Shown here piece by piece: positions 1-34,535 of a DNA stretch of 64,000 nucleotides. The stretch covers positions 838 through 64,837 of the forward strand of contig CAYTPZ010000007.1 in the NCBI GenBank assembly GCA_964440095.1, written 5' to 3'. How positions within the stretch are numbered: position 1 is the stretch's first letter; each line of letters begins with the position of its first letter. This DNA comes from an uncultured bacterium. GTDB taxonomy: Bacteria > Krumholzibacteriota > Krumholzibacteriia > JACNKJ01. The notes beneath the pieces were generated by a model. That model was given only the letters and a program-made list of their open reading frames with translations, made no database searches and had not been told where the DNA came from. The translations under genes and the position numbers were made by a program.

Positions 1-2079
1 GCCACCGACTTGGAGCACTACTATTCCGACACCTACAAGCTGCAGTTCAGCGGTCCCATGCCCGGCAGCGGCAGTTGGCTCCCCGGCGAGTGGCTGAGCT
101 ACTTCGTGAACTTTTCCAGCGAGATCCTCAACACGCGCTACCCCAGCATACGCACTCTGCCCCTGGGTCCGGAGAATCTCAACGTCAACTATAAGGACAG
201 CTTCCTGGGTATTCCCATTCAATGGGGGAACAGCCTGGCGCCGCGTCAGAACAATACCTGGAACCTCATGGCCAAGCTGAGTTGGAAAATCAATGCCAAC
301 CACAAGCTGCGCCTGTCCTTCATGAAGTTCCTGGGATTCGACCAGGGCTTCGAGCGCCACGACATCAGCGACATCACGCGCCAGAGCAATCGCTACCCCT
401 ACAATTGGTCGCATTTTCTGTCGCACTACAGCGCCTTCGTGGAAGATCAGAACGTCACCACGATGCACTATCGCCACACCTTGAGCAGCAGTGCATTCTA
501 CGAAATTCAGGCCGCGCGCTACTTCACCCGGCTGCACCAGGACAGTCAGGGTGTCAATCGCGACGACCTGAAAGACCTGCTCGCCGATTATGTGCCCCCC
601 GAATACACCTGGGCCGATGCGGCGCACGGTGAGGAATGGGAGTTCCATCCCTTCTTTAGGCTCAACGGCGACAACAACATCTATCGGGATCGATTCGTGG
701 AGCGCTACTCGCTGAAGAGCAGCCTCACGAAGAAGTGGTACCCGCATCACAGCGCCAAGGCTGGGTTCGAAGTCGGGTATGAGACGGTGCAGAACATCGA
801 TATTCAGGATCCATGGATCAGCCGCGCCGACGGCCTGGGGCGCAAGGACATCTTCCGCGCCTTCCCGACCACCGGCTATTTCTTCGCCCAGGATGATATT
901 GAGTATCAGGGCTTCGTGGCCAACCTCGGTCTTCGCATGGACTACTGGTTCCCTGGACAACTGGCCACCGATGCGGCCCAAAGCGCCCTTGATGGAACAG
1001 CCGGCGACCTTTTCACCGAGGAAGTCGGGCAGCAGTACTTCGACAACACCCACGAGCTTTTCGGCAATCGCTACAAGTACACGGTGAGTCCGCGTATCGC
1101 GATCAGCTATCCGATCAGTGACCGCGACAAGCTGCGCTTCAACTATGGTCACTTCAGCCAGTGGCCCACCTACTACTATGTCTACGCGCATGTGGCCAGC
1201 GGTGTGGAAGATCTCTTCGGGAACCTGGGCAACATCAACCTGGATCCGCAGATCACCATTCAGTACGAGCTGGGCGCCAGCCACACCTTCACCGAAAACG
1301 TGGCGGGCGATCTGACGGTGTTCGTGAAGGACATCTTCAATTATCCGACCAGCGATCGTTTCACCGTGCAGTACTTCGACCCCGAAGGCGGCAGTAAGGA
1401 AGCGACCTACTTCCTCTACAGAAACGCCGACTATAGTCGCAGCCGCGGCGTTGAGTTCAGTCTTCGCAAACGGCGCGGCCGCTATGCTTCCGGAAGCCTC
1501 AGCTACACCTACTCTATCGCCACGGGAAAGAGCAGCGATCCCGACGCCCTTCGCGAGCTTTACATCGGTGGCGCCACGGGCGAGGTGGAAGTGCAGGAAG
1601 GCTTCCTCTGGTGGAACAAGCCTCACCGGCTCACGGCCACCTTCGACTACCGCGCCCGCGATCCCCAGGGGCCCACCGTCCTGGGAATCCCCACGCCCGG
1701 TCATTGGGGATTCAATCTGTACTACATGCTCTCCAGCGGACGGGCCTATACGCCCAACGATATTCTGGGTGTGCCCATCGGCGAAGATTACTCGCGCAAT
1801 GGTCCCGTCGAGCAGAATCTGAATCTGAAAGTTCAGAAGTGGATCATGTGGGGGGATACCCGCATCGACATAACCCTTCAGGGCTGGAATGTTTTCAATT
1901 GGGATCGACCCAAGAGCGTTGACCCGGTTACTGGTGAGCCTTACAAGGACGGCGTGGGATCCTACTCGGTTGAGTTCACCGATCCCGACGCGCGGCTTTC
2001 ACGTTATCTTTCCCTGCTCGATCCCTCGCGCAACGGCAACCCCCGTCGCTTCAAGCTGAGTGTGGGGGTGAATTTCTAA
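1..2079 (+). CDS. TonB-dependent receptor, C-terminal barrel portion (5' end lies outside the window)
   Basis: Frame is open from base 1. Typical TBDR barrel motifs: VSPRIAISYPISD, GNINLDPQITIQYELG, NADYSRSRGVEFSL, SLSYTYSIATG. Ends in the beta-signal FKLSVGVNF. Confidence 0.85.
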   Translation, partial: ATDLEHYYSDTYKLQFSGPMPGSGSWLPGEWLSYFVNFSSEILNTRYPSIRTLPLGPENLNVNYKDSFLGIPIQWGNSLAPRQNNTWNLMAKLSWKINANHKLRLSFMKFLGFDQGFERHDISDITRQSNRYPYNWSHFLSHYSAFVEDQNVTTMHYRHTLSSSAFYEIQAARYFTRLHQDSQGVNRDDLKDLLADYVPPEYTWADAAHGEEWEFHPFFRLNGDNNIYRDRFVERYSLKSSLTKKWYPHHSAKAGFEVGYETVQNIDIQDPWISRADGLGRKDIFRAFPTTGYFFAQDDIEYQGFVANLGLRMDYWFPGQLATDAAQSALDGTAGDLFTEEVGQQYFDNTHELFGNRYKYTVSPRIAISYPISDRDKLRFNYGHFSQWPTYYYVYAHVASGVEDLFGNLGNINLDPQITIQYELGASHTFTENVAGDLTVFVKDIFNYPTSDRFTVQYFDPEGGSKEATYFLYRNADYSRSRGVEFSLRKRRGRYASGSLSYTYSIATGKSSDPDALRELYIGGATGEVEVQEGFLWWNKPHRLTATFDYRARDPQGPTVLGIPTPGHWGFNLYYMLSSGRAYTPNDILGVPIGEDYSRNGPVEQNLNLKVQKWIMWGDTRIDITLQGWNVFNWDRPKSVDPVTGEPYKDGVGSYSVEFTDPDARLSRYLSLLDPSRNGNPRRFKLSVGVNF

Positions 2080-3074
2080 TGCGCCTACGCAATGCGATTC
2101 TCCTTGGCCTGGCTCTCTTAGTTCTCGCCGCACCGGCCATGGCGCGCATGGAACTGGGAGCCCTTCGCGTGGCCACCAGCAGTGGAACCTTCCTGAAAAT
2201 CGGTGTCAGCCCGCGGGCCGAGGCCATGGGCGGCGCATGGGTGGCCATCGCCTCGGACGCCACGGCGGCCTGGTACAATCCTGCGGGCATGGGCCTGCTT
2301 GCCAACCGGCAGTCCTCTGTGGGTTACGTTGCCTGGCCGGCGGACATTCAATATGTGAGCGCTGCGGTGGGTCTGCCCGGCGGATTCTTCGGCGGCACCT
2401 GGGGCCTGACCCTTGGCAACTTGTCCACGGTCATCGATGAAACCACCGAGTATGAACCCTACGGCACCGGCCGTGAATTCCTCTACTCCGATACGGTGGT
2501 GGGGCTTACTTTCGCGAAGTTCCTCACCCCTAGACTGATCCTCGGAATCAGCGGCAAGTACGTGCGCGAAGATTTGGGATCCTCCATCGATCTTCCTGTG
2601 GTTCAGACATGGCTGGTGGATGCGGGCACGCTCTATCACATTGAATGGCGCAACACCCGCATCGGCATGTCCATCCAGAATTTCGGTCCCGAGTTCAAGC
2701 CGCCGGGTAAGTACTGGAACTACAGCGAAGAGAAGTATCAGGAGTACGAGGGTTTCCCTCCGCCTTCCTCCTTCCGACTGGGGATAGCTTGGGAGGCTTT
2801 CAAGGCCTGGCCCTGGCTGCTGACTCATAGCTTCGAGTTGAATCATCCCGCGGATAATCGCGAGACCATTCACACCGGCGTGGAACTGGCCTATATGGGC
2901 GGAATCTTCGCCCTTCGCGGCGGCTACGTATTCATGGCCGACGGGATGAAACTCTCGACCGGATTCGGGACGGCCTTCATGATGGGCTCCGCCATGGCCG
3001 GCCTGGACTATTCCTTCACCGACGGCGGCGATCTGGGAGCCATCCATCGCTGGGGACTGAGGGTGGATTTCTGA
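2079..3074 (+). CDS. PorV/UPF0164-family outer-membrane beta-barrel (FadL-like superfamily)
   Basis: Signal peptide followed by the hallmark FLKIGVSPRAEAMGGAWVAIASDATAAWYNPAG. Ends LRVDF. TAATG overlap with the TBDR stop. Confidence 0.85.
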   Translation: MRLRNAILLGLALLVLAAPAMARMELGALRVATSSGTFLKIGVSPRAEAMGGAWVAIASDATAAWYNPAGMGLLANRQSSVGYVAWPADIQYVSAAVGLPGGFFGGTWGLTLGNLSTVIDETTEYEPYGTGREFLYSDTVVGLTFAKFLTPRLILGISGKYVREDLGSSIDLPVVQTWLVDAGTLYHIEWRNTRIGMSIQNFGPEFKPPGKYWNYSEEKYQEYEGFPPPSSFRLGIAWEAFKAWPWLLTHSFELNHPADNRETIHTGVELAYMGGIFALRGGYVFMADGMKLSTGFGTAFMMGSAMAGLDYSFTDGGDLGAIHRWGLRVDF

Positions 3075-4024
3075 TGCGAGCACTGAAGACCATCCTGCTT
3101 TTTGCCTTTATTACCGCGGCGGCCGGCTGCGGGATCAAACCCGAGCTGCCCGACCAGACGCCCTTCACCGGCGGCATCAGCGAGGGTGACTACTCGCTGG
3201 AGTATCGCTGGACCGTCCTCGGTGTCACCGACATGGTGGTGGGGCGCGACTCGGGTATCTTCTATGTGATCCAGGACGCCGACAGCCTGGGTATCTATCC
3301 GGCCTATCGCCGTGCGGACGCGGTGTTGGAAGGCCGGCAGCTCTTCCCCGATCTCGTGGAGCCGACCGTGCTTTGCGAGGGGCGTGACTTCGATCGGCGA
3401 ATCTGGGCATACGACCAGGCCGATGGCAAAGTGAAGGGCTTCGACGGGAACGAATTCCTGAGCGAACTCAGCGTCATCATGGAGATCTACGATCCGGGTT
3501 GGCAGGATGTTGTGGCCATCGCGGCCGACGATGATCGCCGCATTTTTGTGGCCGATCGCGGACCCAATCGGATCTATCGTTACAGAATCGAGGGCGACGC
3601 CGGCGACTTCGAGGTCTTGGCCGATGGCGAAATCAGCTGGACCAGTCAGGGCGGCGGCGCCACCGTGCGTGACCTGGCCTTCGCAGACGGCTTCCTGCTC
3701 CTGCTCGACGACGTGTTGCTCACCTTGCAGGTGCTCGATCCGGAAACGGGATCTCAGGACCCCGCGGTCTTCACCTATCTCGACGGATTCTTGGCCCAGC
3801 CCGTCCACATCACGGGCGATGGCGAGGCTATCTTCGTTTCCGATCTCGCCGACAAGGCCATCTGGGCCATCGACTGGGATCTGAACATGGATCTCGCCCT
3901 GCGCGTCAACGCAGCTGAGGATGATCCGGCGCTGACCGATCCCGTTGCGATCACCGTCAACGAGGGTAAGCTCTACGTGGCTGACCCCGAGCTTGGAAAG
4001 ATCTTGGACTATGAGAAGCGGTAG
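3074..4024 (+). CDS. Lipoprotein with NHL/6-bladed beta-propeller-like repeats
   Basis: Lipobox AAAG-C and repeated blade motifs (AIAADDDRRIFVADRGPNRIYRY, IFVSDLADKAIW, KLYVADPELGKI). TGATG coupling to the upstream gene. Confidence 0.7.
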   Translation: MRALKTILLFAFITAAAGCGIKPELPDQTPFTGGISEGDYSLEYRWTVLGVTDMVVGRDSGIFYVIQDADSLGIYPAYRRADAVLEGRQLFPDLVEPTVLCEGRDFDRRIWAYDQADGKVKGFDGNEFLSELSVIMEIYDPGWQDVVAIAADDDRRIFVADRGPNRIYRYRIEGDAGDFEVLADGEISWTSQGGGATVRDLAFADGFLLLLDDVLLTLQVLDPETGSQDPAVFTYLDGFLAQPVHITGDGEAIFVSDLADKAIWAIDWDLNMDLALRVNAAEDDPALTDPVAITVNEGKLYVADPELGKILDYEKR

Positions 4025-6239
4025 ACGGCTGCTGGCAATGCTGATCCTGCTCCTGGCCCTGCCCACCATGGCGGCCGAGGGGGATCACAATTCGCCCACG
4101 CCCCTGGCTTTGCCGCCCGCAGGTCCTTTCTGGGCGGACGATCGCGATAGTCTCATCGTGGATTACGTCTTCAAGGTGCAGGACATCGGCAATCTGGCCA
4201 TGAGCCTGACCAACCACGGTTTCCTGGGCGACAACTTCGCCGATCGCGAAGTGCCGTCCATGGTCTTCCCCAAGGGCTCCTCCGTCGATCACCTCATTCG
4301 CGCGGGAATTTGGGTGGGGGGCATCAACACCAACCTGGACCCCTTGGTGACCACCGGCGTGCAGGACGGCTACTACGGTTCCTACACGCGCCGCACCGAA
4401 TGGGAACCCGGTGCCATTCCTCAAACCGAGAGCAACATCGGTTGGATTCGCGGGCGAAGCACACTGCCTACGAGCCCCTATTACAATCCCGACGACGCCA
4501 TCAGCGAGCTGGACTTCATCACGGAAATGGTGGACACCCTGGATCACGCCGACGATGTGGATTGGGACGAAGACGATTTCCATACGGCCACCGGTTTCCT
4601 GATGACCCAGGAAAGCTTCGCCTGGAGCTTCGAGCCCGCCAACGACATGATCATCTTTCGCTACACTTTGACGCCCACCCGCCGCATCAGTCAGACCTAT
4701 TTCGGAATGTATGCCGAACTGACCACGGGCGACAAAGACGACTACGAAAACTGGCCGCCCTCGGGTTGGTTCCGCCGCCACCAGCTCAAGTGGGTGGACG
4801 CCATGCCCGAGTATGAGGGCGTCAGCGACGAGCCTTTGAATCTTTGCGCGGAACACCACTTCAGTTACTTGCCGGGTGAACATGCGGGCATCAAGTTCAT
4901 GGGCGCCAAGTTCTATCCGGGCGACGGCGGCGAAGTGATCACCGACGTGAACGTGGCCTGGCAGTGGTGGAACTGGGATCCGGGCTCCATCGCTTTGGAC
5001 CAGGACGTGGAGCGCTACGCGCTGCTCAGTGATCCGGGCATCGACGACTGGACCGAGATTCTTCCTTTGGAAGACAGTCCCATCATGTTGCTCAGCGGCG
5101 GTCCTTGGGAATTCAATCCGCCTTTGGAAGGGCAGGCGCCCGATCGCCTGGTGGTGACCTATGCATACCTTGGTGGCGACACCATGGATGATTTGGTGAA
5201 CAACGCCATCTATGCCCAGGAAGCCTACAACAAGGACTTCGCACTGCCCTCACCGCCGCACTCGCCCCAGACGACGGTCCGGCTCAACTCCGGAAAGGTC
5301 ACGCTGTTCTGGGAGGGCAGCCCCGAACTTTCCAGCGATTCCGAAAGCGGATTCGATTTCGAGGGTTACCGAATCTATCTGGGCCGCTCCGCTGAGGAAT
5401 CAGCCTTCGGTTTGATCAAGGACTACGATCTCACTGATGTTCCCGCGGCCAATGTGATGACCGGCGAGTTTTCCATCCGGCAGGACTGGCTCGATTCACT
5501 CGTGACGGCTTGGAATGTGGAAGACGAGCAGTCTGTACTCGATCTGCTCGATGAAACCTGGCCCGGCACGGACTATGTGTATCACGAAGGCGCGGATCCG
5601 CCCTTCCTGGTCACCCATGCCGACTCCGTGGGCTACAACACGGGCCTGTCCCAGGTGCGATTGGCGGAGGAAGACTATCTCACCGAATGGGTGAACGATT
5701 CCACGCAGGTCACCTACACCTACGCCTACACCTTCGATGAGCTTTCCGACGGACACGAATACTGGGCCGCGGTAACCAGCTATGACCAGGGCGCAGGCTC
5801 GGTGGCCAGCTTGGAGAGCGGCCGAAGCCAGAACGCGCGCTACGTGATTCCCGGTCCAGGACCCGAGTCCTGGGAAGCCGGACGTCCCGTAACCGTCTTC
5901 CCCAATCCCTATCGCGGCAGCGCGGTCTGGGACGGCAACCGCGCCATCGGTCGCTATATCTGGTTTGCCGGCCTACCCGCGCGGGCCACAATCAAGATCT
6001 ACACTTTGGCTGGCGATCTGGTTTACGATTTTGCTTTCGATCGCGACACCTATGTCGGCGAAAATGCCGCCGGCGTTTTCCCGGCCGACGGCCAGGCTCC
6101 TGTTCTTCCCGGAACCTTCGCGGCCTGGGATCTGCGCAGCAATAACGGACAGCCCGTCTCCACGGGCCTCTACATGTTTTCGGTGAAAGACCTGGACACA
6201 GGCGAGGCCCAGCAGGGCAAGTTCCTGGTGCTCAAGTGA
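4011..6239 (+). CDS. Large secreted protein with Fn3-like region and T9SS/FlgD-like C-terminal sorting domain
   Basis: Probable ATG at 4011 gives a signal peptide (LLAMLILLLALPTMAA). Contains FEGYRIYLGRS and YWAAVTSYD. C-terminus VFPNPY...IKIYTLAGDLV...WDLRSNNGQPVSTGLYMFSV...GKFLVLK. Confidence 0.75.
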   Translation: MRSGRRLLAMLILLLALPTMAAEGDHNSPTPLALPPAGPFWADDRDSLIVDYVFKVQDIGNLAMSLTNHGFLGDNFADREVPSMVFPKGSSVDHLIRAGIWVGGINTNLDPLVTTGVQDGYYGSYTRRTEWEPGAIPQTESNIGWIRGRSTLPTSPYYNPDDAISELDFITEMVDTLDHADDVDWDEDDFHTATGFLMTQESFAWSFEPANDMIIFRYTLTPTRRISQTYFGMYAELTTGDKDDYENWPPSGWFRRHQLKWVDAMPEYEGVSDEPLNLCAEHHFSYLPGEHAGIKFMGAKFYPGDGGEVITDVNVAWQWWNWDPGSIALDQDVERYALLSDPGIDDWTEILPLEDSPIMLLSGGPWEFNPPLEGQAPDRLVVTYAYLGGDTMDDLVNNAIYAQEAYNKDFALPSPPHSPQTTVRLNSGKVTLFWEGSPELSSDSESGFDFEGYRIYLGRSAEESAFGLIKDYDLTDVPAANVMTGEFSIRQDWLDSLVTAWNVEDEQSVLDLLDETWPGTDYVYHEGADPPFLVTHADSVGYNTGLSQVRLAEEDYLTEWVNDSTQVTYTYAYTFDELSDGHEYWAAVTSYDQGAGSVASLESGRSQNARYVIPGPGPESWEAGRPVTVFPNPYRGSAVWDGNRAIGRYIWFAGLPARATIKIYTLAGDLVYDFAFDRDTYVGENAAGVFPADGQAPVLPGTFAAWDLRSNNGQPVSTGLYMFSVKDLDTGEAQQGKFLVLK

Positions 6240-6246
6240 GGCTGAT

Positions 6247-7818
6247 ATGAAGAAAAGCACTCACATTTTATGGATCATCCTTCTGGCGGCGCTGCTGCTC
6301 GGCGCTTGCACAGAGGTCACCGAATTCACGGAAAATCTTCCGCCTCAGACTTCGCTTATGGTCGATAGCAGCGTCAATGTGGATCCCACACACTATCTGC
6401 AAGTTCTCCACTGGCATGGTGAAGATCAGGATGGAGAGGTGGCGCGCTACGAATACAAGTGGACTCTCGACCCGGCTGTGGCCGCCGGCGACTTCGACAC
6501 CACCTGGGTGGGGCGAGTGGAGCCATTCGTTACCTGGGAGAGCGACAGCTTCTTTCTGCCCGTGCCCGAGACCCAGGCGCTTCACGCTTTCCAGGTGCGT
6601 GCGGTGGATTGGGAAGGCTTGGCCGATCCCAGCCCTGCCTATGTCGAGCTACCTGTCTTCAACAGTCCGCCGAGTATCCTCTACCAACGGGGCGAGGAAC
6701 TCGACACGCTCATCACCCTGCCCGCGGAAATTCTGCCGGTCTACAGCCTGAAATTCAAAGTGGAAGATCCTGACGACGATGAAGGGCTTGGCGCTCTCAT
6801 CGAAGAGGTGCGTTTTTGGTTCGAGGACCCAGACGACTACATCAGCATTCCCGGGGCCGACACGCTTTTCACCCTCATGCCCGAGCACTTCGGCGAGGGT
6901 GTGGGAATCAATCGGGAATTCCATCTGCAGGCCGTGGATAGGGCGGGGGCCAAGAGCAATGTGCTTCGCGGCGAGGCCGTGGTGAAGGATATCAGCGAGG
7001 TCGAGCTGCTTATTCTGGACTCCTGCGATTCGGGAACCACCGCCGAGATTACCGCGGACAGCTACTGGAAAAACGACGTAGCGGGCCTATTTCCGCCTGA
7101 AAAAGTCTACGTACACGATTTTGATGAATTTGGGGGCCTTGGTCAGCCCGAGGTCCTTTACAATATCTTTTCCATTTTCAAAGCCGTGTTGTGGTATAAT
7201 GGTGACGCCGGATTCGCAAATGACGAGCTTTTTACAAGTATTCCCACTCCCGAGATTCAAGAGGCCGAGGAGGCGCTCTTGGCGTATCTGGAAGGGGGAG
7301 GCAAGGTTCTGATCACCGGGTGGAACCTGGTAGGAGCCAGCGTTCGCGATCAGGTGGAGCCGGGGCAGCCGCCAGGCCCCGAGAATTACAGTGGTGCCAG
7401 CTTCTCCGAGGATTTCGACGATGAGGTGCTTCTGCTCGATGAGTTCAGACATCACAGCGTCAGTACGGAGAATCACGAGTCCTCGAATTTCAGACTCTTC
7501 CCGGGTCGAGAAATCGTAGGATATCCTGAGATAGGCACGGAAACTTTGAGGAACATGACGGCGCTTACCGGCATCGACCTCATGCTTCCCAATGAGGATG
7601 CTCTAGGGGCCGGAACCCTGGAGAGTCTCTACAGCGTCAACGGCGCGGTGGATACTTATCCTCAGACCTTAGGCGACGGTGTCGTCGGACTCAGACGATA
7701 CTTCGACCAGGACGGAGAGATGGTGCTGCTCACCTTCCCTCTAAGCCTGGCTTTCGGATACGGCAACGCGCTGGGTGAGGCGGAAAGCTTCCTCCAGCAT
7801 TTCGAGCTTCTGCCCTGA
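6247..7818 (+). CDS. Lipoprotein with Fn3/Ig-like repeats and a C-terminal alpha/beta (GATase-like) domain
   Basis: Lipobox LLGA-C. Motifs WHGEDQDGEVARYEYKW, QVRAVDWEGLADPSPA, LQAVDRAGAKS, and VLWYNGD...LLAYLEGGGKVLITG. Confidence 0.65.
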   Translation: MKKSTHILWIILLAALLLGACTEVTEFTENLPPQTSLMVDSSVNVDPTHYLQVLHWHGEDQDGEVARYEYKWTLDPAVAAGDFDTTWVGRVEPFVTWESDSFFLPVPETQALHAFQVRAVDWEGLADPSPAYVELPVFNSPPSILYQRGEELDTLITLPAEILPVYSLKFKVEDPDDDEGLGALIEEVRFWFEDPDDYISIPGADTLFTLMPEHFGEGVGINREFHLQAVDRAGAKSNVLRGEAVVKDISEVELLILDSCDSGTTAEITADSYWKNDVAGLFPPEKVYVHDFDEFGGLGQPEVLYNIFSIFKAVLWYNGDAGFANDELFTSIPTPEIQEAEEALLAYLEGGGKVLITGWNLVGASVRDQVEPGQPPGPENYSGASFSEDFDDEVLLLDEFRHHSVSTENHESSNFRLFPGREIVGYPEIGTETLRNMTALTGIDLMLPNEDALGAGTLESLYSVNGAVDTYPQTLGDGVVGLRRYFDQDGEMVLLTFPLSLAFGYGNALGEAESFLQHFELLP

Positions 7819-7917
7819 CCCGGGGAAATGGGTCCCGATCCCGGGGTTAAGGGAAAGGGCTTTAGCCCAGCCATCGGGGTAACAACAGTAGAGAATTCAA
7901 CCTTTCGGGGGATACCG

Positions 7918-9759
7918 ATGAAGAAACTTCTCTCTCTCATGCTTCTTCTCATGGTGTCGCTGCCTGTCTCGGCTCAGTTGCTGACGACCTGCTACGATAT
8001 CAATACCGGACTGGTGCCTGAGTACACCTTCGTCCGCGTTGAGGCACTCATAGTCACGGCCGTAGCCGACTACGGTTACTACGCCCAGGAACAGGCCGGC
8101 GGTCCCTACGCCGGTATGTGGATTTACACCGGCAGCGGCGATCCGCCGACCGAGATCATCGGCGACATCGTCAATGTCGAAGGCGAATACTACGAGTACT
8201 ACGACTACTCGGAAATCGACATGACGGCCATGGGCGGCGACGAGTACGTGGGATTCGGCACCAGCCCCGATCCTGAAGTGCTCCGTGCCGTTCAGGTTAA
8301 GGTGGAGAATCCTCTCGAGGCCGAAAAGTGGGAAGCCATGCTCGTTCAGGTGCTCAACCTGGATCCGCTTCCCGACGATCTCGGTTACGGCGAGTGGTGG
8401 GGTCTTGAGTTCGGTTACGCCGACAATGACACCGCGCGCTTCGATGATCAGTTCACCTACGGTCAGCCTCTGCCCGGCCAGATGATGGAAAGCGCAACCG
8501 GAACCCTGCGTTTCGGTTACGGCTTCTTCAAGGTCGAGCCTCGCGGCAACTATGACCTGGTTTTCGTGGGCGCCGAGCCCGCGCCGAACCTGGACTACGC
8601 GGTTTGCACGGGCGATGCCACCATCGATGTGCGCTTCGATCGCGAAGTGGATCAGACCACCGCGGAAAATCCCTGGAACTACTTCCTGGATGCCGGGCTC
8701 GTGAGCACGGCCGTCCTGGATGCCACGGATCCCACCCTGGTGCACCTGACCCTGACCGCCGACATGCCCATCGAGCTGTACATGACCCTTACGGTCTTCG
8801 ACGTGCAGAACACCACGGGCATTCCCATGACTCCGCAGGACGTGAGCTTCTGGGGCGGCATCAACACCGTCGCTTTTGTGAACACGCCTGATGCGGAAGG
8901 CAACAGCATCCTCGACCAGCAGGTCGTCACCTTCAAGGGCGTGCTTTCCGCCAAGTTGGAAAACCGCGCCTACTTCACCGATGAAGCCGGCGGCGATTAC
9001 TCCGGCATCGAGGTCTATTGCCCGGCCATCATCGATGACCTAGCAATCGGCGACCTCTATATCATCGGCGACTTCCTGAGCGAGTACTACGGGATGACTT
9101 CGATCACCTATCCCTTCTACTACTCGGAACTGGTTTCCTCGGGCAACACTCCCCCGGCGCCTCCGGTCATCGGAATCTCCGGCGTGGACATGGAGCTTTA
9201 CGAATGCCAGTTGGTCGTTGTGGATGACGTCACAGTCGCCACATTCCCCACCTGGGAAACCTACGGAGAGTGGTGGGTCTACTATCCGCGCGGCGATTCC
9301 CTCAAGGTCGGCGAGAACGGCGAAGTGAGCGACTACGATTACAACCCCGTGATCGGCGACATCATCGATCTCACGGGCGTGCTTCGTTTCACCTATGACG
9401 AGTTCAAGGTGTATCCCCGCGATAACTCCGACATCGTCATCGTGTTCGATAACCCGCCCACCGACGTGCTGCCCGCCGGCGCCTCGGTCATGCTGGGTCA
9501 GAACTTCCCCAACCCCTTCAACCCGAGCACCAAGATCAGCTTCCGCATCGATCGCGAGAAGCAGGTGCGTCTTGAAGTCGTGGGCGTCGACGGACGTCGC
9601 GTCGCGCTGCTTCAGGATGGAATGATGGGCGAGGGCGAGCACTCCGTCGTCTGGGATGGCCGGACCGACAGTGGTGAGCAGGCTGCGAGCGGCCTCTACT
9701 ACTACAGTCTGATCACTCCGGATGAAGTCTTGTCCAACAAGATGGTGCTCTTGAAGTAA
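7918..9759 (+). CDS. Secreted protein with duplicated OB-fold-like modules, Big_5-like Ig domain and FlgD/T9SS-type CTD
   Basis: ATG at 7918 gives signal peptide MKKLLSLMLLLMVSLPVSA. Internal repeats (YGEWW twice; LRF.Y..FKV.PR twice). Also VRFDREVDQTTAENPWNY and the tail GQNFPNPFNPSTKISF...ASGLYYYSL...KMVLLK. Confidence 0.75.
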   Translation: MKKLLSLMLLLMVSLPVSAQLLTTCYDINTGLVPEYTFVRVEALIVTAVADYGYYAQEQAGGPYAGMWIYTGSGDPPTEIIGDIVNVEGEYYEYYDYSEIDMTAMGGDEYVGFGTSPDPEVLRAVQVKVENPLEAEKWEAMLVQVLNLDPLPDDLGYGEWWGLEFGYADNDTARFDDQFTYGQPLPGQMMESATGTLRFGYGFFKVEPRGNYDLVFVGAEPAPNLDYAVCTGDATIDVRFDREVDQTTAENPWNYFLDAGLVSTAVLDATDPTLVHLTLTADMPIELYMTLTVFDVQNTTGIPMTPQDVSFWGGINTVAFVNTPDAEGNSILDQQVVTFKGVLSAKLENRAYFTDEAGGDYSGIEVYCPAIIDDLAIGDLYIIGDFLSEYYGMTSITYPFYYSELVSSGNTPPAPPVIGISGVDMELYECQLVVVDDVTVATFPTWETYGEWWVYYPRGDSLKVGENGEVSDYDYNPVIGDIIDLTGVLRFTYDEFKVYPRDNSDIVIVFDNPPTDVLPAGASVMLGQNFPNPFNPSTKISFRIDREKQVRLEVVGVDGRRVALLQDGMMGEGEHSVVWDGRTDSGEQAASGLYYYSLITPDEVLSNKMVLLK

Positions 9760-9764
9760 TAATC

Positions 9765-9833
9765 ACGGGGAGGGAATTACCCTCCCCGTATACAGCTTCG
9801 AAAGTTATACGGGGAGGGTAATTCCCTCCCCGT
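9765..9833. repeat. REP-like doublet: perfect 28-bp inverted repeat whose arms are themselves hairpins
   Basis: ACGGGGAGGGAATTACCCTCCCCGTATA (9765-9792) and its exact reverse complement (9806-9833) flank a 13-nt spacer. May also act as a terminator. Confidence 0.85.
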
Positions 9834-9856: not shown

Positions 9857-10675
9857 ATGGAAGAGCATCGCATTTACATTCATTTGCCTTTGAGTATGTA
9901 CGCCAAGTATCGGGACGCGGTGCTTGCCATGCCCGTGGGGCTCGAACTGCTCGTGGATCACGAGGTGCTCGTGCCCGAGTTCCGTGGCGAAATGAAAGAC
10001 ATCGCCGCCGAAATCAGGGAGCGCAAGATTCCCTGCCGCTTCCATGCGCCCTTCCGCAATCTGTATCCCGCCGGTCACGATCCCGAAGCGGTGGACCTGG
10101 CTCGTCGGCGTCTGCTAAGCACCTTGGCCTTGGCTCCCAAGTTTGGCGCGAAGCATCTGGTGGTTCATCCCGCCTGGGATCCTCGCGGCGACATCCTCGA
10201 TCGGGAAGCCTGGCTGGACCGGGCCGAGGCTTTCTGGAGCTCTATGATTCCATCCCTGGAAGCCGCCGATGCGGCTTTCGTTTTGGAGAACATCTTCGAC
10301 CTGGATCCCTCGCTCCTGGTGGACCTGCTCGCCCGGCTCTCCCCCGAGCGATTCGGCTTCCTCTTCGACACGGGCCACTTCAACGCCTTTTCCGAAGTCC
10401 GCCTGGACGACTGGCTGAGCGCCCTGGAACCGCGCCTACAGTCCATTCACATCCACGATAATGCCGGTCAGCACGACGAGCACCTGGCATTGGGCCAGGG
10501 AAGCTTTCCCTGGGGCGATCTTTTCGAGTGGGTGGGTGGGCAAAATCGTCCCCTGGAGTGGACATTGGAAAATCGCAGCGTGGAGGATGTTATTGCTAGC
10601 CTTCGCTTTCTGGGCCAGAGCTCGGGAATTTCCGAGTTCAGACCCCTGGCCGAGCTAGCCCTGCCCCAGGCCTAG
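9857..10675 (+). CDS. Sugar-phosphate isomerase/epimerase (AP endonuclease 2-like TIM barrel) family protein
   Basis: Metal-binding motifs FHAP, VVHP, LEN, FDTGH, HIHDN, DEHL..G.G..W, LEN. Confidence 0.75.
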   Translation: MEEHRIYIHLPLSMYAKYRDAVLAMPVGLELLVDHEVLVPEFRGEMKDIAAEIRERKIPCRFHAPFRNLYPAGHDPEAVDLARRRLLSTLALAPKFGAKHLVVHPAWDPRGDILDREAWLDRAEAFWSSMIPSLEAADAAFVLENIFDLDPSLLVDLLARLSPERFGFLFDTGHFNAFSEVRLDDWLSALEPRLQSIHIHDNAGQHDEHLALGQGSFPWGDLFEWVGGQNRPLEWTLENRSVEDVIASLRFLGQSSGISEFRPLAELALPQA

Positions 10676-19030: not shown

Positions 19031-21010
19031 ATGTCAAAGACGGGGCTCCCAATCTTGCGTCTGGCCCTTGTGGTCAGCCTGGTCGTTTTCCTTTCCGTTT
19101 CGGCGGAAGAGGGGCGGTCCACCTATGTGGAATCGGTCCATTTCGAAGGAAACGAAACCCTATCCGGTGATGAATTGCGTCAGGTCATGCGCACCCGCGA
19201 ACGCGGCCTGCTGCAGCTGACCCATCCCAATTTCAATCCCGAGTACATGCGCAGCGATCTGGCTCGCCTGGAAGCGCTCTACCATCGCGCAGGTTTTTAT
19301 GAAGCGCGGGTTTGGTCCGATCCGGAAAGCGACATCACACTTCGCCCGGTGGGAGAAACGCGTAACGCGGCTGAACTGACCATCCACATTGAAGAGGGTC
19401 GGCGGCGGCATCTACGCCGGCGCATTTTTCAGCCGCCTCTGGGTGCTCTGGGAGAGGGCCTGGCCCCTCGGCTGAAACTCAAGCCGGGAGATCCCTTCAA
19501 TCCGCGTGCGGTAGACAGCGAAGGTTCGCGCATTTTGCGTTTCTTGCAGAGCAGCGGATACTTTGCCGCGCAAATCAGCACTCGCATGGAATTGCTCGAT
19601 GCGCCCAGTTACGCATCCACCGATTCCGTGGATCTCATCTTCCAGCTTCGCCCTGGTCCCCGGGGATTTTTGCGCGAGATCCAAATTGAGGGCAGCACTC
19701 TGCCCGACGCCTTCCTGCTCCAGGAAATGCGCGTGAATATAGACGAGGTTCTTCTACTGGAAGATCTGCTTTTGAGCGAACAGAATTTGCTCGATACGGG
19801 ACTCTTCCGGTCGGCACTCTATCGCATCGAATCTCTCGGGCCCGAAGAGACCGGCACTGAGGGCCTGCGTCTTGTCTGGAGCCTGCGCGAGCGCGATCGA
19901 GGCGCCATGGAATTGGGTGCGGGATATGGTAGCCAGGATGGCTATCGTCTGCTGGGCGGGTGGACTCATCGCAACTTCGGATATCCCGGCGGTCGTATCA
20001 GTTTAGAGACCCTGCACAATCTCAAGGAAGATAGTAAGAACGTATTCGGTCCCAGCTTCGAAAGACAGGTGCTCGAGTACCAGGTGCGCAACGTGATACG
20101 GGCGGGCAATCATCTGGGCATCGACCTTTTTCGGGAGAAGGACTACGAGCAGCTTAGCGGTCTCTACAGCCTAGAGTCCTTGGCTTTTCGAATCACGCTC
20201 TTCCGGCGCCTCAGCCCCAATGTTGTGCTGCGCCTTCGCGAGCAGCAGCGCGTGGGCACCCAGACTCTTTTGGAAAGCAGCGACGAGGGGGACCCTCGCT
20301 ACCTCACACGCTCCTTTGCCACCTTGCTGGAGCAGGACCGGCGGGATCACTATCTGCATCCCAAGCGGGGAGATCAGATTCTCGCCAGCTATGAGATCGC
20401 GGGGGGCTGGCAGGGCGGCGACCATCATTTCCAGAAGATCAAACTCAGTGGCCGTTGGTACGACGGCTGGCGCAGCGGCGTGCTGGCTTCCAGGCTTTCC
20501 CTTTCCTGGGTGGGTGCTTACGGCAAGAGCCAGGATGTAGAACTCACGGGTGTGCCCGAGGACGGCATTCCCTACGAAGAGCGCTTCTACTGCGGCGGAT
20601 CCCACACCGTGCGCGGCTATGAGAATTCGAGTCTGGGCCCAAGGCGAGATCCCGATCTGGATCCCGGTGAAGGTAACGCCCAGGGCGGACGTTTCATGTT
20701 CGTGGGCAATCTGGAATGGCGACGCTCATTGGCTGGCCTCATGCCCTTCCGCTGGAGCAAGGGGCTGGGCGCGTCCGTTTTCCTGGACGCGGGCAACAGC
20801 TGGTTGAGCCCGACAGAAATCGCCATCGATCGCTTGCTTCCCTGGGATGGAGATTCCGACGATAACCTGCGTCTCTTCTGGGGCACGGGATTCGGCATTT
20901 ACTATGTCACTCCCGTCACGGTTCTGCGACTGGATCTGGGATTCCCCGCCAGTTGGGTGGAAGATCGCGGCGGCATCGTTTGGCACCTTAGCCTGGGACA
21001 TTCCTTCTGA
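19031..21010 (+). CDS. Omp85/TamA-like outer-membrane protein (POTRA repeats plus barrel)
   Basis: POTRA motifs (VHFEGNETLSGDEL, LEALYHRAGFYEA). Barrel motifs FYCGGSHTVRGY and FLDAGN...GTGFGI..VTPV..LRLDLG. Ends LGHSF. Confidence 0.85.
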   Translation: MSKTGLPILRLALVVSLVVFLSVSAEEGRSTYVESVHFEGNETLSGDELRQVMRTRERGLLQLTHPNFNPEYMRSDLARLEALYHRAGFYEARVWSDPESDITLRPVGETRNAAELTIHIEEGRRRHLRRRIFQPPLGALGEGLAPRLKLKPGDPFNPRAVDSEGSRILRFLQSSGYFAAQISTRMELLDAPSYASTDSVDLIFQLRPGPRGFLREIQIEGSTLPDAFLLQEMRVNIDEVLLLEDLLLSEQNLLDTGLFRSALYRIESLGPEETGTEGLRLVWSLRERDRGAMELGAGYGSQDGYRLLGGWTHRNFGYPGGRISLETLHNLKEDSKNVFGPSFERQVLEYQVRNVIRAGNHLGIDLFREKDYEQLSGLYSLESLAFRITLFRRLSPNVVLRLREQQRVGTQTLLESSDEGDPRYLTRSFATLLEQDRRDHYLHPKRGDQILASYEIAGGWQGGDHHFQKIKLSGRWYDGWRSGVLASRLSLSWVGAYGKSQDVELTGVPEDGIPYEERFYCGGSHTVRGYENSSLGPRRDPDLDPGEGNAQGGRFMFVGNLEWRRSLAGLMPFRWSKGLGASVFLDAGNSWLSPTEIAIDRLLPWDGDSDDNLRLFWGTGFGIYYVTPVTVLRLDLGFPASWVEDRGGIVWHLSLGHSF

Positions 21011-24843: not shown

Positions 24844-24855
24844 GCGAGGTTCACG

Positions 24856-34510: not shown

Positions 34511-34535
34511 AAGGGGAGAGCAATGCCCTCCCCTT
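34511..34535 (-). terminator. Intrinsic terminator downstream of the dockerin-like gene
   Basis: On the minus strand: hairpin AAGGGGAGGGCATTGCTCTCCCCTT followed by TTCTTT. Confidence 0.7.

What the first reader, a model, noticed from the sequence alone, without database searches (positions are those of the whole stretch)
1..9759. TonB receptor - PorV-like barrel - lipoprotein - CTD-cargo cassette: candidate uncharacterised surface capture/uptake system
Seen: five tightly spaced genes (TAATG and TGATG overlaps, a 14-bp overlap, a 7-bp gap) plus a sixth 99 bp downstream. They encode a TBDR, a PorV/UPF0164 barrel, an NHL lipoprotein, a CTD protein, an Fn3 lipoprotein and a second CTD protein. 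None has a catalytic motif I can recognise. Known: in Bacteroidota, PorV binds T9SS C-terminal domains and shuttles or displays cargo, while TBDRs usually pair with SusD lids. Inference: here a dedicated PorV paralog may hold a CTD-bearing binding protein on its partner TBDR. That would be a SusCD-analogous module built from T9SS parts in a non-Bacteroidota lineage. No porK/L/M/N/sprA gene is in the window.
Basis: partly seen in the sequence, partly recalled or inferred. Interest (0 to 1): 0.8.

Follow-up and report, generated by a model that had tools for sequence, protein, structure and literature searches.

The report
Conserved TonB receptor–PorV-like surface cassette
Six co-transcribed outer-membrane genes are real and conserved as a set across many phyla of the Bacteroidota-related (FCB) superphylum: a TonB-dependent receptor, a PorV/PorQ-family barrel, two lipoproteins and two proteins with type-IX-secretion tails. 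They probably form an undescribed nutrient-capture and import complex, but its substrate and its physical assembly are untested.

Summary
Six tightly packed + strand genes occupy window 1-9759, and the first is cut by the window edge. They encode a TonB-dependent receptor (g1), a PorV/PorQ-family barrel (g2), an NHL-propeller lipoprotein (g3), a 742-aa protein with a derived type-A CTD (g4), an Fn3-type lipoprotein (g5) and an OB-fold protein with a canonical T9SS CTD (g6). No catalytic family was detected.

The gene set is ancient. It recurs in Eisenbacteria/Krumholzibacteria-like genomes in the same order. In Ignavibacteria, Kapaibacteria, Calditrichia, KSB1 and Rhodothermales it recurs as g4-g6-g5-g1-g2-NHL. 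The last group includes a cultured Rubrivirga. A more distant variant keeps the trio receptor + g4 + PorV-like barrel.

g2 is neither PorV, PorQ nor PorV2 proper. The CTD of g4 is the best-conserved part of that protein.

Best reading: a TonB-energised uptake complex whose surface proteins include CTD proteins held by a dedicated PorV-family carrier barrel, analogous to PorQ-PorZ.

- The module is not confined to non-Bacteroidota lineages.
- Physical contacts, substrate and T9SS core genes in this genome remain untested.
- No description was found in the literature searched.

Interest 0.62; new variant of a known kind.

The parts
1..2079 (+). g1: TonB-dependent receptor, C-terminal 692 of 927 residues. 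The N-terminal CarboxypepD_reg domain, TonB-box-like motif and Plug lie left of the window on the source contig.
   Evidence: PF00593 scores 64.3 bits. The full gene is L001 133-2916 with CarboxypepD_reg and Plug. The motif 'qeVvVvGEkPL' is conserved between the N-terminal domain and the Plug in 53 orthologues. No SusC/RagA equivalog match was found.
2079..3074 (+). g2: 331-aa PorV/PorQ-family (FadL-like) outer-membrane barrel with a signal peptide. It forms a subfamily distinct from PorV, PorQ and PorV2.
   Evidence: NF033709 scores 138.5, above its cutoff of 90. PorV scores 33.7 (cutoff 250), PorQ 60.7 (cutoff 220) and PorV2 35.6 (cutoff 325). The family profile's best PDB hit is PorV 6h3i_F at E=7.6e-19.
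3074..4024 (+). g3: lipoprotein (lipobox AAGC) with a six-bladed NHL beta-propeller.
   Evidence: NHL scores 21.6, above its cutoff of 20. The family profile hits PknD-derived, TRIM71 and other NHL propellers at up to E=1e-64. The lipobox is conserved in orthologues. An NHL lipoprotein follows g2 in 33 Ignavibacteria-type loci.
4011..6239 (+). g4: 742-aa secreted protein of an unannotated family. It has an all-beta N-terminal domain (about residues 54-410), an Fn3-like domain with an insert (about 421-620) and a derived type-A CTD (residues 628-742, nt 5892-6236).
   Evidence: The AlphaFold2 model has pLDDT 78.8. There are no Pfam or PDB sequence hits. The CTD is homologous to the cassette's type-A CTD (hhalign probability 96%). 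It is the most conserved segment of the protein. The family holds 1320 clusters at E<=1e-30.
6247..7818 (+). g5: 523-aa lipoprotein (lipobox LGAC) with two Fn3/Ig-like domains followed by an alpha/beta domain. Its family is unannotated.
   Evidence: The AlphaFold2 model has pLDDT 86.9. The top PDB fold match is chain G of the levan utilisome entry 8aa2. I take that chain to be the surface glycan-binding lipoprotein from memory. There are no Pfam or PDB sequence hits.
7918..9759 (+). g6: 613-aa secreted protein with two OB-fold-containing units like the N-terminal part of ExeM/NucH-type nucleases, an Ig-like domain and a canonical T9SS type-A CTD (about nt 9505-9756). It has no nuclease domain.
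   Evidence: FlgD_ig scores 30.5. ExeM_NucH residues 18-108 match at E=3e-6. The family profile hits 9sf8_A residues 4-233 at E=6e-14 and the PorU CTD. Among 26 orthologues, Por_Secre_tail matches 19 and tRNA_anti-codon OB matches 10.
9765..9833 (.). Two near-identical GC-rich palindromic hairpins directly after g6. They are the likely end of the transcription unit.
   Evidence: A dinucleotide-preserving shuffle expects 0 matches.

Best explanation
The six genes form one operon. It encodes an outer-membrane nutrient capture and import complex of a type not yet described.

**Shown**
- g1 is a plug-containing TonB-dependent receptor with a conserved TonB-box-like motif.
- g2 is a PorV/PorQ-family barrel of its own subfamily.
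- g3 and g5 are lipoproteins. g3 is an NHL propeller. g5 has an Fn3-Fn3-alpha/beta architecture and resembles a utilisome surface binding protein in fold.
- g4 and g6 carry T9SS-type C-terminal domains.
- The six families travel together across at least six phylum-level FCB lineages.

**Inferred**
- g4, and perhaps g6, crosses the outer membrane by a type IX pathway.
- Instead of being cleaved and released, it stays bound through its unusually conserved CTD to the dedicated carrier barrel g2. PorZ is held this way by PorQ, and PorU by PorV.
- g2 sits next to g1, so the CTD proteins and the two lipoproteins form a surface cage that captures a ligand and hands it to the TonB-energised receptor.

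The substrate is unknown. The OB-fold units of g6 resemble those of extracellular nucleases, but they are very acidic here, so a nucleic-acid ligand is only a weak lead.
For: **Operon structure**
- Start and stop codons overlap, gaps are small, and no internal terminator-like site rises above shuffle expectation. Twin hairpins follow g6.

**Domain evidence**
- The TonB-box-like motif is conserved in 53 orthologues.

**Conservation**
- The order is the same in L010-L013, L016, L045, L063 and L088.
- The order is permuted to g4-g6-g5-g1-g2-NHL in 25 of the 37 loci with enough flanking DNA (about 40 loci in all, counting truncated ones), with different flanking genes.
- The full set is present in cultured Rubrivirga sp. 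IMCC43871.
- A distant variant, L091, keeps receptor + g4 + PorV-like barrel + a g5-like protein.

**g4 and g2**
- Across 78 sequences the g4 CTD keeps 0.52-0.55 identity to the window residue in four of its five 25-residue blocks (0.22 in the block holding the larger insertion). The rest of the protein mostly shows 0.2-0.4, with a few blocks lower or slightly higher (0.03-0.46).
- The g4 CTD is a type-A CTD with two family-specific insertions.
- A g4-type CTD profile hits essentially only g4 proteins in the loci.
- g2 fails the PorV, PorQ and PorV2 equivalog cutoffs but passes the family model.

**Precedents**
- Uncleaved CTDs are held by cognate PorV-like barrels (PMC10202324).
- Carrier proteins anchor their substrates (PMC10994853).
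- The g5 fold resembles a chain of the levan utilisome.
Against: - No interface among the six products was predicted or measured.
- No SusD-like lid and no enzyme are present, and no substrate can be named.
- T9SS core genes are absent from the window and could not be sought in the rest of the genome.
- g4 has no recognised Por_Secre_tail or FlgD_ig match in Pfam or NCBIfam.
- Co-conservation of genes shows functional linkage, not physical contact.
- PorV-family proteins are FadL relatives, so g2 could have a transport role of its own.
- The locus has no nearby regulator, unlike typical polysaccharide utilisation loci.
Confidence: 0.45

Rival explanations
1. This is a loosely coupled uptake operon with no CTD tether. 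g1 imports a nutrient. g2 acts as an independent FadL-type channel for a hydrophobic or amphipathic compound. g4 and g6 are ordinary T9SS cargo that the general PorV/PorU machinery handles and then releases or links to LPS. The genes are co-regulated, but g2 does not bind their CTDs.
For: - g2 also matches Toluene_X/FadL weakly.
- g6 has a canonical type-A CTD of the kind PorV and PorU normally process.
- Operon co-conservation alone does not prove a complex.
Against: - Among solved structures the g2 family profile matches PorV far better than any FadL transporter. PorV scores E=7.6e-19. CymD and 3dwo score E>=0.04.
- The g4 CTD is under stronger constraint than the rest of g4 and has conserved family-specific insertions. 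A disposable secretion signal would not be expected to behave this way.
- The trio g1 + g4 + g2 persists even in the distant variant L091.
Confidence: 0.25
2. This is an accessory module of the type IX secretion or attachment machinery rather than a nutrient importer. g1 would be a PorF (PG0534)-like TonB-receptor-type T9SS component. g2 would be a PorQ/PorV-like attachment barrel. g4 and g6 would be non-cleaved structural CTD subunits comparable to PorZ, PorU or PorA.
For: - PorF is a plug-containing TonB-receptor-like protein needed for normal T9SS output in P. gingivalis. Its partners are unknown (PMC5445135, PMC12704123).
- The only NCBIfam hit of g4 is the C-terminal end of PorZ. The g6 CTD hits the PorU CTD.
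- The cassette looks like single-locus, vertically inherited housekeeping equipment rather than a variable locus.
Against: - g4 is not built like PorZ, which has two propellers. Nor is it built like PorU, a C25 peptidase. Fold matches to 5m11 and 6za2 are weak, and no peptidase family is detected.
- PorZ, PorQ, PorV and PorU equivalog cutoffs are all missed.
- The best 80 of at least 597 genome hits contain no Flavobacteriia or Bacteroidia, the classes where the T9SS was defined.
- Orthology of g1 to PorF could not be tested because no PorF sequence was available here.
Confidence: 0.15
3. This is part of a Bacteroidota-type BAM complex. g2 would be the FadL-like BamG subunit, and the lipoproteins would be BamH-like canopy subunits. 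The window encodes BamA-like and TamB-like proteins 9 kb downstream.
For: - BamG and BamH are reported to be conserved in most FCB phyla (PMC12611786, PMC12578637).
- Omp85 and TamB genes lie at window 19031-27840.
Against: - The g2 profile finds PorV in the PDB, and no BAM chain reached E<=10. I did not confirm that the PDB copy holds BamG.
- The g3 and g5 profiles find no BAM subunit.
- The cassette is not next to bamA in the other lineages.
- The cassette includes a plugged TonB receptor, which BAM does not have.
Confidence: 0.04

Closest known systems
SusCD-type utilisomes of Bacteroidota (TonB-dependent transporter + SusD lid + surface glycan-binding lipoproteins and enzymes)
   Same: - The large TonB-dependent receptor has an N-terminal CarboxypepD_reg-type domain followed by a TonB box and Plug.
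- The operon encodes surface-type lipoproteins.
- The best fold match of g5 is a chain of the levan utilisome entry 8aa2.
   Different: - There is no SusD-like protein and no SusC/RagA equivalog match.
- There is no glycoside hydrolase and no linked regulator.
- The cassette contains a PorV-family barrel and two CTD proteins.
- It is one conserved locus rather than many variable PULs.
T9SS carrier/anchor pairs: PorQ-PorZ, PorV-PorU, and PorP/SprF with type-B CTD adhesins
   Same: A PorV-family barrel is encoded beside a CTD protein whose CTD is unusually conserved. This is consistent with a CTD that is retained and bound by a cognate barrel (PMC10202324, PMC10994853).
   Different: - g2 misses the PorV, PorQ and PorV2 equivalog cutoffs.
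- g4 is neither a double propeller nor a C25 peptidase.
- The pair is hard-wired to a TonB-dependent receptor and two lipoproteins.
PorF (PG0534) of Porphyromonas gingivalis
   Same: It is a TonB-receptor-like, plug-containing outer-membrane protein functionally tied to the T9SS (PMC5445135, PMC12704123).
   Different: Orthology to g1 was not tested. PorF is not reported to be encoded with a PorV paralogue and CTD proteins.
BtuB-BtuG type complexes (TonB-dependent transporter capped by a beta-propeller surface lipoprotein). This comparison is from my own knowledge and was not checked here.
   Same: A propeller lipoprotein, g3, is encoded with the receptor. The g1-g2-NHL block stays together in both gene orders.
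   Different: g3 is a six-bladed NHL propeller with no detected relation to BtuG. There is no evidence of cobalamin specificity: TonB-B12 scores 38 bits against a cutoff of about 600.
BamG, the FadL-like subunit of the Bacteroidota BAM complex
   Same: It is a FadL-family barrel that serves as a structural partner of another barrel and holds a surface lipoprotein (PMC12578637, PMC12611786).
   Different: By sequence g2 is a PorV relative, not a BamG relative. Its partner here is a TonB receptor.

Membership tests
PorV/PorQ family (NCBIfam NF033709) | Whole-protein score at or above the curated cutoff of 90 bits | tested here: met
   g2 scores 138.5 bits over residues 35-331. The L061 orthologue scores 226 bits.
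PorV proper (NF033710 equivalog) | Score at or above 250 bits | tested here: not met
   g2 scores 33.7 bits. The L061 orthologue scores 93.8. PorV 6h3i_F is nevertheless the closest solved structure.
PorQ (NF033711 equivalog) | Score at or above 220 bits | tested here: not met
   Scores are 60.7 bits and 90.6 bits for the L061 orthologue.
PorV2 (NF052325 equivalog) | Score at or above 325 bits | tested here: not met
   Scores are 35.6 bits and 79 bits for the L061 orthologue.
TonB-dependent receptor | Plug domain plus 22-strand barrel domain | tested here: met
   PF00593 scores 64.3 bits in the window part. Plug and CarboxypepD_reg are recorded for the full-length gene on L001. In the L061 orthologue Plug scores 45.2 and the barrel 67.1 bits.
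TonB-dependent receptor | TonB box N-terminal to the Plug | tested here: met
   The motif 'qeVvVvGEkPL' is conserved between the CarboxypepD_reg domain and the Plug in 53 orthologues. The source-contig copy reads EQITTWGEAP. Function was not assayed.
SusC/RagA (TIGR04056) with a SusD partner | SusC/RagA subfamily score at or above 368 bits, and an adjacent SusD-family gene | tested here: not met
   The window and L001 copies give no TIGR04056 hit. L061 scores 53 bits, in the N-terminal part only. None of the six products hits a SusD family.
T9SS type-A CTD cargo: g6 | C-terminal Por_Secre_tail / FlgD_ig-type domain | tested here: met
   FlgD_ig scores 30.5, above its cutoff of 27. TIGR04183 scores 18.4, below its cutoff of 23, in the window copy. 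Of 26 orthologues, 19 match PF18962 and 22 match FlgD_ig. In L061, TIGR04183 scores 31.9.
T9SS type-A CTD cargo: g4 | C-terminal Por_Secre_tail-type domain | tested here: inconclusive
   None of 37 family members gives a Pfam or NCBIfam CTD hit. Only the PorZ C-terminal end matches, at 24.6 bits. However, hhalign of the g4 tail profile against the cassette type-A CTD profile gives probability 96% and E=2e-9, with two insertions.
T9SS (system level) | sprA/sov and porK/L/M/N (gldK-N) in the same genome | not testable with these tools
   None of the window ORFs scanned with Pfam or NCBIfam matched one. The contig ends 837 bp left of the window. Genome-wide scans were exhausted.
PorZ / PorU (attachment complex subunits) | PorZ equivalog at or above 260 bits with a double propeller, or PorU sortase equivalog at or above 420 bits with a C25-type peptidase domain | tested here: not met
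   g4 scores 24.6 bits against PorZ and g6 scores 26.9 bits against PorU. Both matches cover the CTD only. The g4 model is beta-sandwich + Fn3 + CTD, and fold hits to 5m11 and 6za2 are weak.
NHL-repeat beta-propeller | NHL repeats forming a six-bladed propeller | tested here: met
   PF01436 scores 21.6, above its cutoff of 20, and 45 bits in L061. The family profile gives 3-6 matched stretches on the listed six-bladed NHL propellers, with the best at E=1e-64.
ExeM/NucH extracellular nuclease (NF033681) | Score at or above 300 bits, including the endonuclease/exonuclease/phosphatase catalytic domain | tested here: not met
   Only model positions 18-108 (window) or 2-214 (L061) match, at 26-38 bits. 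The PDB match covers residues 4-233 of 9sf8_A and does not extend beyond residue 233 of that 562-residue EEP-domain protein.

The most novel reading that the evidence does not exclude
Across the FCB superphylum there may be a previously unrecognised class of TonB-dependent import machine. In it, the surface capture or lid proteins are not SusD-type lipoproteins. They are T9SS-exported proteins permanently tethered by their C-terminal domain to a dedicated PorV-family barrel that docks on the receptor. That would join the type IX secretion and TonB uptake systems into one conserved complex.
Probability: 0.35. Interest if true: 0.8.

Novelty: new variant of a known kind. Interest (0 to 1): 0.62.

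Why it matters
- Two of the six families have no annotation at all. These are g4, with at least 1320 clusters at 50% identity, and g5. Yet both are conserved with a TonB receptor and a PorV-family barrel across Eisenbacteria, Krumholzibacteria-like lineages, Ignavibacteria, Calditrichia, KSB1 and Rhodothermales, and g4 relatives also occur in Zixibacteria.
- If the products form one complex, PorV-type carrier barrels would have a role outside secretion proper. TonB-dependent transporters would have a new kind of surface partner.
- It would also give a handle on nutrient acquisition in abundant but mostly uncultured phyla.
- A cultured carrier, Rubrivirga sp. IMCC43871, makes the hypothesis testable.

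Tried and rejected
- **g4 = PorZ or PorU: rejected.** Only the CTD matches, the model has no propellers or peptidase fold, and the equivalog cutoffs are missed.
- **g2 = BamG or a generic FadL transporter: rejected on sequence.** The profile finds PorV alone at a significant E-value.
- **g6 = nuclease: rejected.** The catalytic EEP domain is absent.
- **Nucleic acid as the ligand, from the OB folds of g6: kept only as a weak lead.** The OB-like units are strongly acidic, with net charges of -31 and -24 and pI about 4.
- **Fold searches of the g4 and g5 models.** Generic Fn3 hits dominated both. The g4 N-terminal beta domain and the g5 C-terminal alpha/beta domain stay unassigned.
- **Profile searches of g4 and g5 against PDB sequences and Pfam.** They gave nothing.
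- **Literature searches.** Searches covered Krumholzibacteria or Eisenbacteria with T9SS, PorV with Ignavibacteria, PorV-like with TonB, PorV2, and T9SS with TonB transporter lids. None described this cassette.
- **Orthology of g1 to PorF.** It could not be tested because no PorF sequence was available.
- **My greedy ORF caller.** It mis-called some high-GC loci, so L011, L013, L051 and L088 appeared to lack g2. Searches show the gene is there.

Full report
**1. What is in the window**

Window 1-9759 holds six + strand genes.
- g1 runs off the left edge.
- A close relative, L011, shares the N-termini MRSGR... and MKKLL..., which supports those two starts.
- Terminator-like sites within the block do not exceed shuffle expectation.
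- Two near-identical GC-rich palindromes follow g6 at 9765-9789 and 9809-9833.

The window is a JGI marine-type metagenome contig (Ga0115650_1001054, 65,105 bp).
- That contig ends 837 bp to the left of the window.
- On it, g1 is 927 aa and starts 704 bp before the window (L001 133-2916).
- The window ORFs scanned with Pfam or NCBIfam (19 proteins, not every ORF) are housekeeping: rplM, rpsI, rpsB, tsf, uppS, dxr, rseP, Omp85/TamB, uvrD, gatAB, an ABC transporter, methylmalonyl-CoA enzymes, lon and purA.
- None of them matched a T9SS core family.
- The closest named relatives are MAGs labelled Candidatus Krumholzibacteria (53-56% identity for g4 and g5) and Candidatus Eisenbacteria. I treat the phylum assignment as tentative.

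**2. What each product is**

*g1: TonB-dependent receptor.*
- It has a barrel domain (64.3 bits), a Plug and an N-terminal CarboxypepD_reg domain.
- A TonB-box-like motif sits between the N-terminal domain and the Plug. It reads 'qeVvVvGEkPL' in consensus and EQITTWGEAP in this organism. It is conserved in 53 orthologues.
- It is not a SusC/RagA equivalog.

*g2: PorV/PorQ-family barrel.*
- It passes the family model NF033709 (138.5 bits against a cutoff of 90).
- It misses the equivalog cutoffs of PorV, PorQ and PorV2. The better-scoring Ignavibacteria orthologue misses them too.
- A 34-sequence family profile has F. johnsoniae PorV (6h3i_F) as its only significant PDB match, at E=7.6e-19. FadL-type channels appear only at E>=0.04.

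*g3: NHL-propeller lipoprotein.*
- It has the lipobox AAGC and a six-bladed NHL propeller.

*g4: unannotated CTD protein.*
- It has no Pfam, NCBIfam or PDB sequence relatives apart from a weak match to the C-terminal end of PorZ.
- The AlphaFold2 model (pLDDT 78.8) shows three parts: an all-beta domain at about residues 54-410, an Fn3-like domain with a long insert, and a C-terminal beta-sandwich.
- Generic Fn3 proteins dominate the fold search. PorU and PorZ appear only weakly.
- The last 115 residues are homologous to the type-A CTD of the cassette's other cargo (hhalign probability 96%, E=2e-9). They carry two insertions.

*g5: Fn3-type lipoprotein.*
- It has the lipobox LGAC.
- Two Fn3/Ig domains are followed by an alpha/beta domain (pLDDT 86.9).
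- Its best PDB fold match is chain G of the levan utilisome entry 8aa2. From memory, I take that chain to be the surface glycan-binding lipoprotein.
- No sequence family matches.

*g6: OB-fold CTD protein.*
- It has a canonical T9SS type-A CTD (FlgD_ig 30.5 bits). Of 26 orthologues, 19 match Por_Secre_tail.
- It has two units like the non-catalytic N-terminal part of ExeM/NucH-type nucleases. The family profile hits 9sf8_A residues 4-233 at E=6e-14.
- OB-fold Pfam hits appear in 10 of 26 orthologues.
- It has no nuclease domain.

**3. Conservation**

*Same-order cassettes.* Divergent g2 homologues (44-60% identity) on long contigs sit in the same six-gene order, with different flanking genes.

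*Genome-wide scan.* A scan of one genome per GTDB species with the g4 alignment gave at least 597 confirmed loci. The best 80 span these groups:
- Eisenbacteria
- Ignavibacteria and Melioribacteraceae
- Kapaibacteria
- Calditrichia
- KSB1
- Rhodothermales

*Gene sets in the fetched loci.* I searched ORFs of all fetched loci with the six window proteins and clustered all neighbours.
- All six families travel together.
- Eisenbacteria-type genomes keep g1-g2-g3-g4-g5-g6, often with an extra g4 paralogue upstream.
- 25 of the 37 loci with enough flanking DNA (about 40 loci in all, counting truncated ones) have g4-g6-g5-g1-g2 followed by an NHL lipoprotein.
- The blocks [g1 g2 NHL] and [g4 g5 g6] are therefore each preserved.

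*Association with the receptor.* Of 37 loci with enough flanking DNA, every one has the receptor beside g4. The apparent absences of g2 are truncations or errors of my ORF caller.

*Cultured carrier and variants.*
- The cultured Rubrivirga sp. IMCC43871 (NZ_CP177355.1) carries the whole set.
- A more distant variant, L091, keeps receptor, g4, PorV-like barrel and a g5-like protein, with a beta-helix protein added.
- A locus carrying a g4 relative of the Zixibacteria-type cluster (L090; its contig is unnamed) has tandem g4 paralogues without a receptor nearby.

*Family size.* An exhaustive profile search finds 1320 clusters at 50% identity for the g4 family at E<=1e-30. Every named member seen is 'hypothetical protein'.

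**4. How it most likely works**

*Shown.*
- The module consists of a plugged TonB receptor, a PorV-family barrel of its own subfamily, two lipoproteins and two CTD proteins.
- The six are inherited as a unit across phyla.

*Key extra observation.* The g4 CTD is the best-conserved part of g4.
- It keeps 0.52-0.55 identity to the window residue in four of its five 25-residue blocks (0.22 in the block holding the larger insertion). The rest of the protein mostly shows 0.2-0.4, with a few blocks lower or slightly higher (0.03-0.46) (78 sequences).
- It carries conserved insertions.
- A profile of it recognises essentially only g4 proteins in the loci.
- A disposable secretion signal would not be expected to behave this way. 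It fits a CTD that is retained and bound.

*Published precedents.*
- PorZ keeps its CTD and is held by PorQ.
- PorU keeps its CTD and is held by PorV.
- Type-B substrates remain on PorP/SprF-type carriers.
- A review explicitly proposes that cognate PorV-like barrels protect CTDs from cleavage (PMC10202324; carrier concept in PMC10994853).

*Inference.*
- g4, and possibly g6, is exported by a type IX route.
- It stays tethered to g2.
- g2 neighbours g1.
- The CTD proteins plus the NHL and Fn3 lipoproteins form a surface cage that feeds the TonB-energised receptor.

Two corrections apply. The module is ancient and also present in lineages where the literature suggests T9SS may be present (PMC11285876). 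And nothing yet shows which protein, if any, caps the receptor.

*Substrate.* It is unknown. The nuclease-type OB units of g6 hint at nucleic acids, but they are very acidic here (net -31 and -24). All four surface proteins have pI about 4.1. I rate that lead as weak.

**5. Rivals**

- (a) *Co-regulated but not physically tethered.* g2 would act as a FadL-type channel, and g4 and g6 would be ordinary cargo. The PorV-specific similarity of g2 and the constrained g4 CTD argue against this, but it is not excluded.
- (b) *An accessory module of the T9SS itself.* g1 would be comparable to PorF/PG0534, a TonB-receptor-like T9SS component of unknown role (PMC5445135, PMC12704123). Against this, g4 and g6 are not PorZ or PorU, and no Flavobacteriia or Bacteroidia appear among the best 80 genome hits. 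Orthology to PorF could not be tested.
- (c) *Part of the Bacteroidota-type BAM complex* (FadL-like BamG plus surface lipoproteins; PMC12578637, PMC12611786). The PDB profile searches give no support.
- (d) *A self-contained mini-translocon.* There is no evidence for this.

**6. Comparison and novelty**

- The parts belong to known kinds: TonB-dependent transporter, PorV-family carrier, type-A CTD cargo and surface lipoproteins.
- I did not find the combination described in ten full-text literature searches. That combination is a dedicated PorV-family barrel plus a specialised CTD protein, hard-wired to a TonB receptor without SusD.
- Two of the families are unannotated.
- I therefore rate it a new variant of a known kind. 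Interest is moderate to high, because the module is widespread and testable in a cultured organism.
- The central mechanistic claim, a physical complex with a CTD tether, remains inference.

Noticed in passing
window 9765-9789 and 9809-9833; also 34511-34535: Two near-identical GC-rich palindromes (ACGGGGAGGG-N5-CCCTCCCCGT) lie directly after g6. A third, looser copy lies elsewhere in the window. Shuffles expect none. They are probably terminator hairpins or a small repeat element.
   Followed up: partly
L035, L039, L058, L065, L069, L077, L081, L086 (upstream of g4); L007, L008, L046 (downstream of g6): In Ignavibacteriales the cassette directly follows, on the same strand, a 2-oxoacid dehydrogenase and lipoylation cluster (E3, LplA-like, E1, E2, LipA). 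In Eisenbacteria, E2 and an LplA-like gene follow g6. The same neighbourhood in two distant phyla suggests ancestral synteny or a functional link. It is absent from the window itself.
   Followed up: partly
window 19031-27840: A BamA-like Omp85 protein (659 aa) is followed by a TamB-like protein (1277 aa). Next comes a 994-aa protein that combines Peptidase_MA-like and PD40 regions with a C-terminal Omp85 barrel, which is an unusual architecture.
   Followed up: no
L007 1-2487, L016 2851-4785, L021 2849-4882, L067, L084; L090 7235-12709: Several Eisenbacteria loci carry a second g4 paralogue just upstream of the receptor gene. L090, a contig carrying a g4 relative of the Zixibacteria-type cluster, has two tandem g4 paralogues (890 and 902 aa) with no receptor within 10 kb, next to a 2315-aa Por_Secre_tail protein.
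   Followed up: partly
L091 3854-16969: This is a variant cassette on a 3.7-Mb contig. It encodes a 1330-aa TonB receptor, a beta-helix protein, a 1060-aa g4 relative, a PorV-like barrel and a 914-aa g5-like protein. The trio of receptor, g4 and PorV-like barrel persists while the accessories change.
   Followed up: partly
window 3074-9759: All four predicted surface proteins (g3-g6) are extremely acidic, with net charges from -32 to -70 and pI about 4.1. The two CTDs are near neutral (net -1 and -2).
   Followed up: partly
L007 7196-9990: On this 2.1-Mb contig the receptor gene is split into two overlapping ORFs of 355 and 576 aa. This is either a frameshift or an assembly error.
   Followed up: no
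window 9857-10675: A xylose-isomerase-like TIM-barrel gene (AP_endonuc_2) sits between the cassette and rplM-rpsI, both here and in L010. It is not part of the cassette in other lineages.
   Followed up: no
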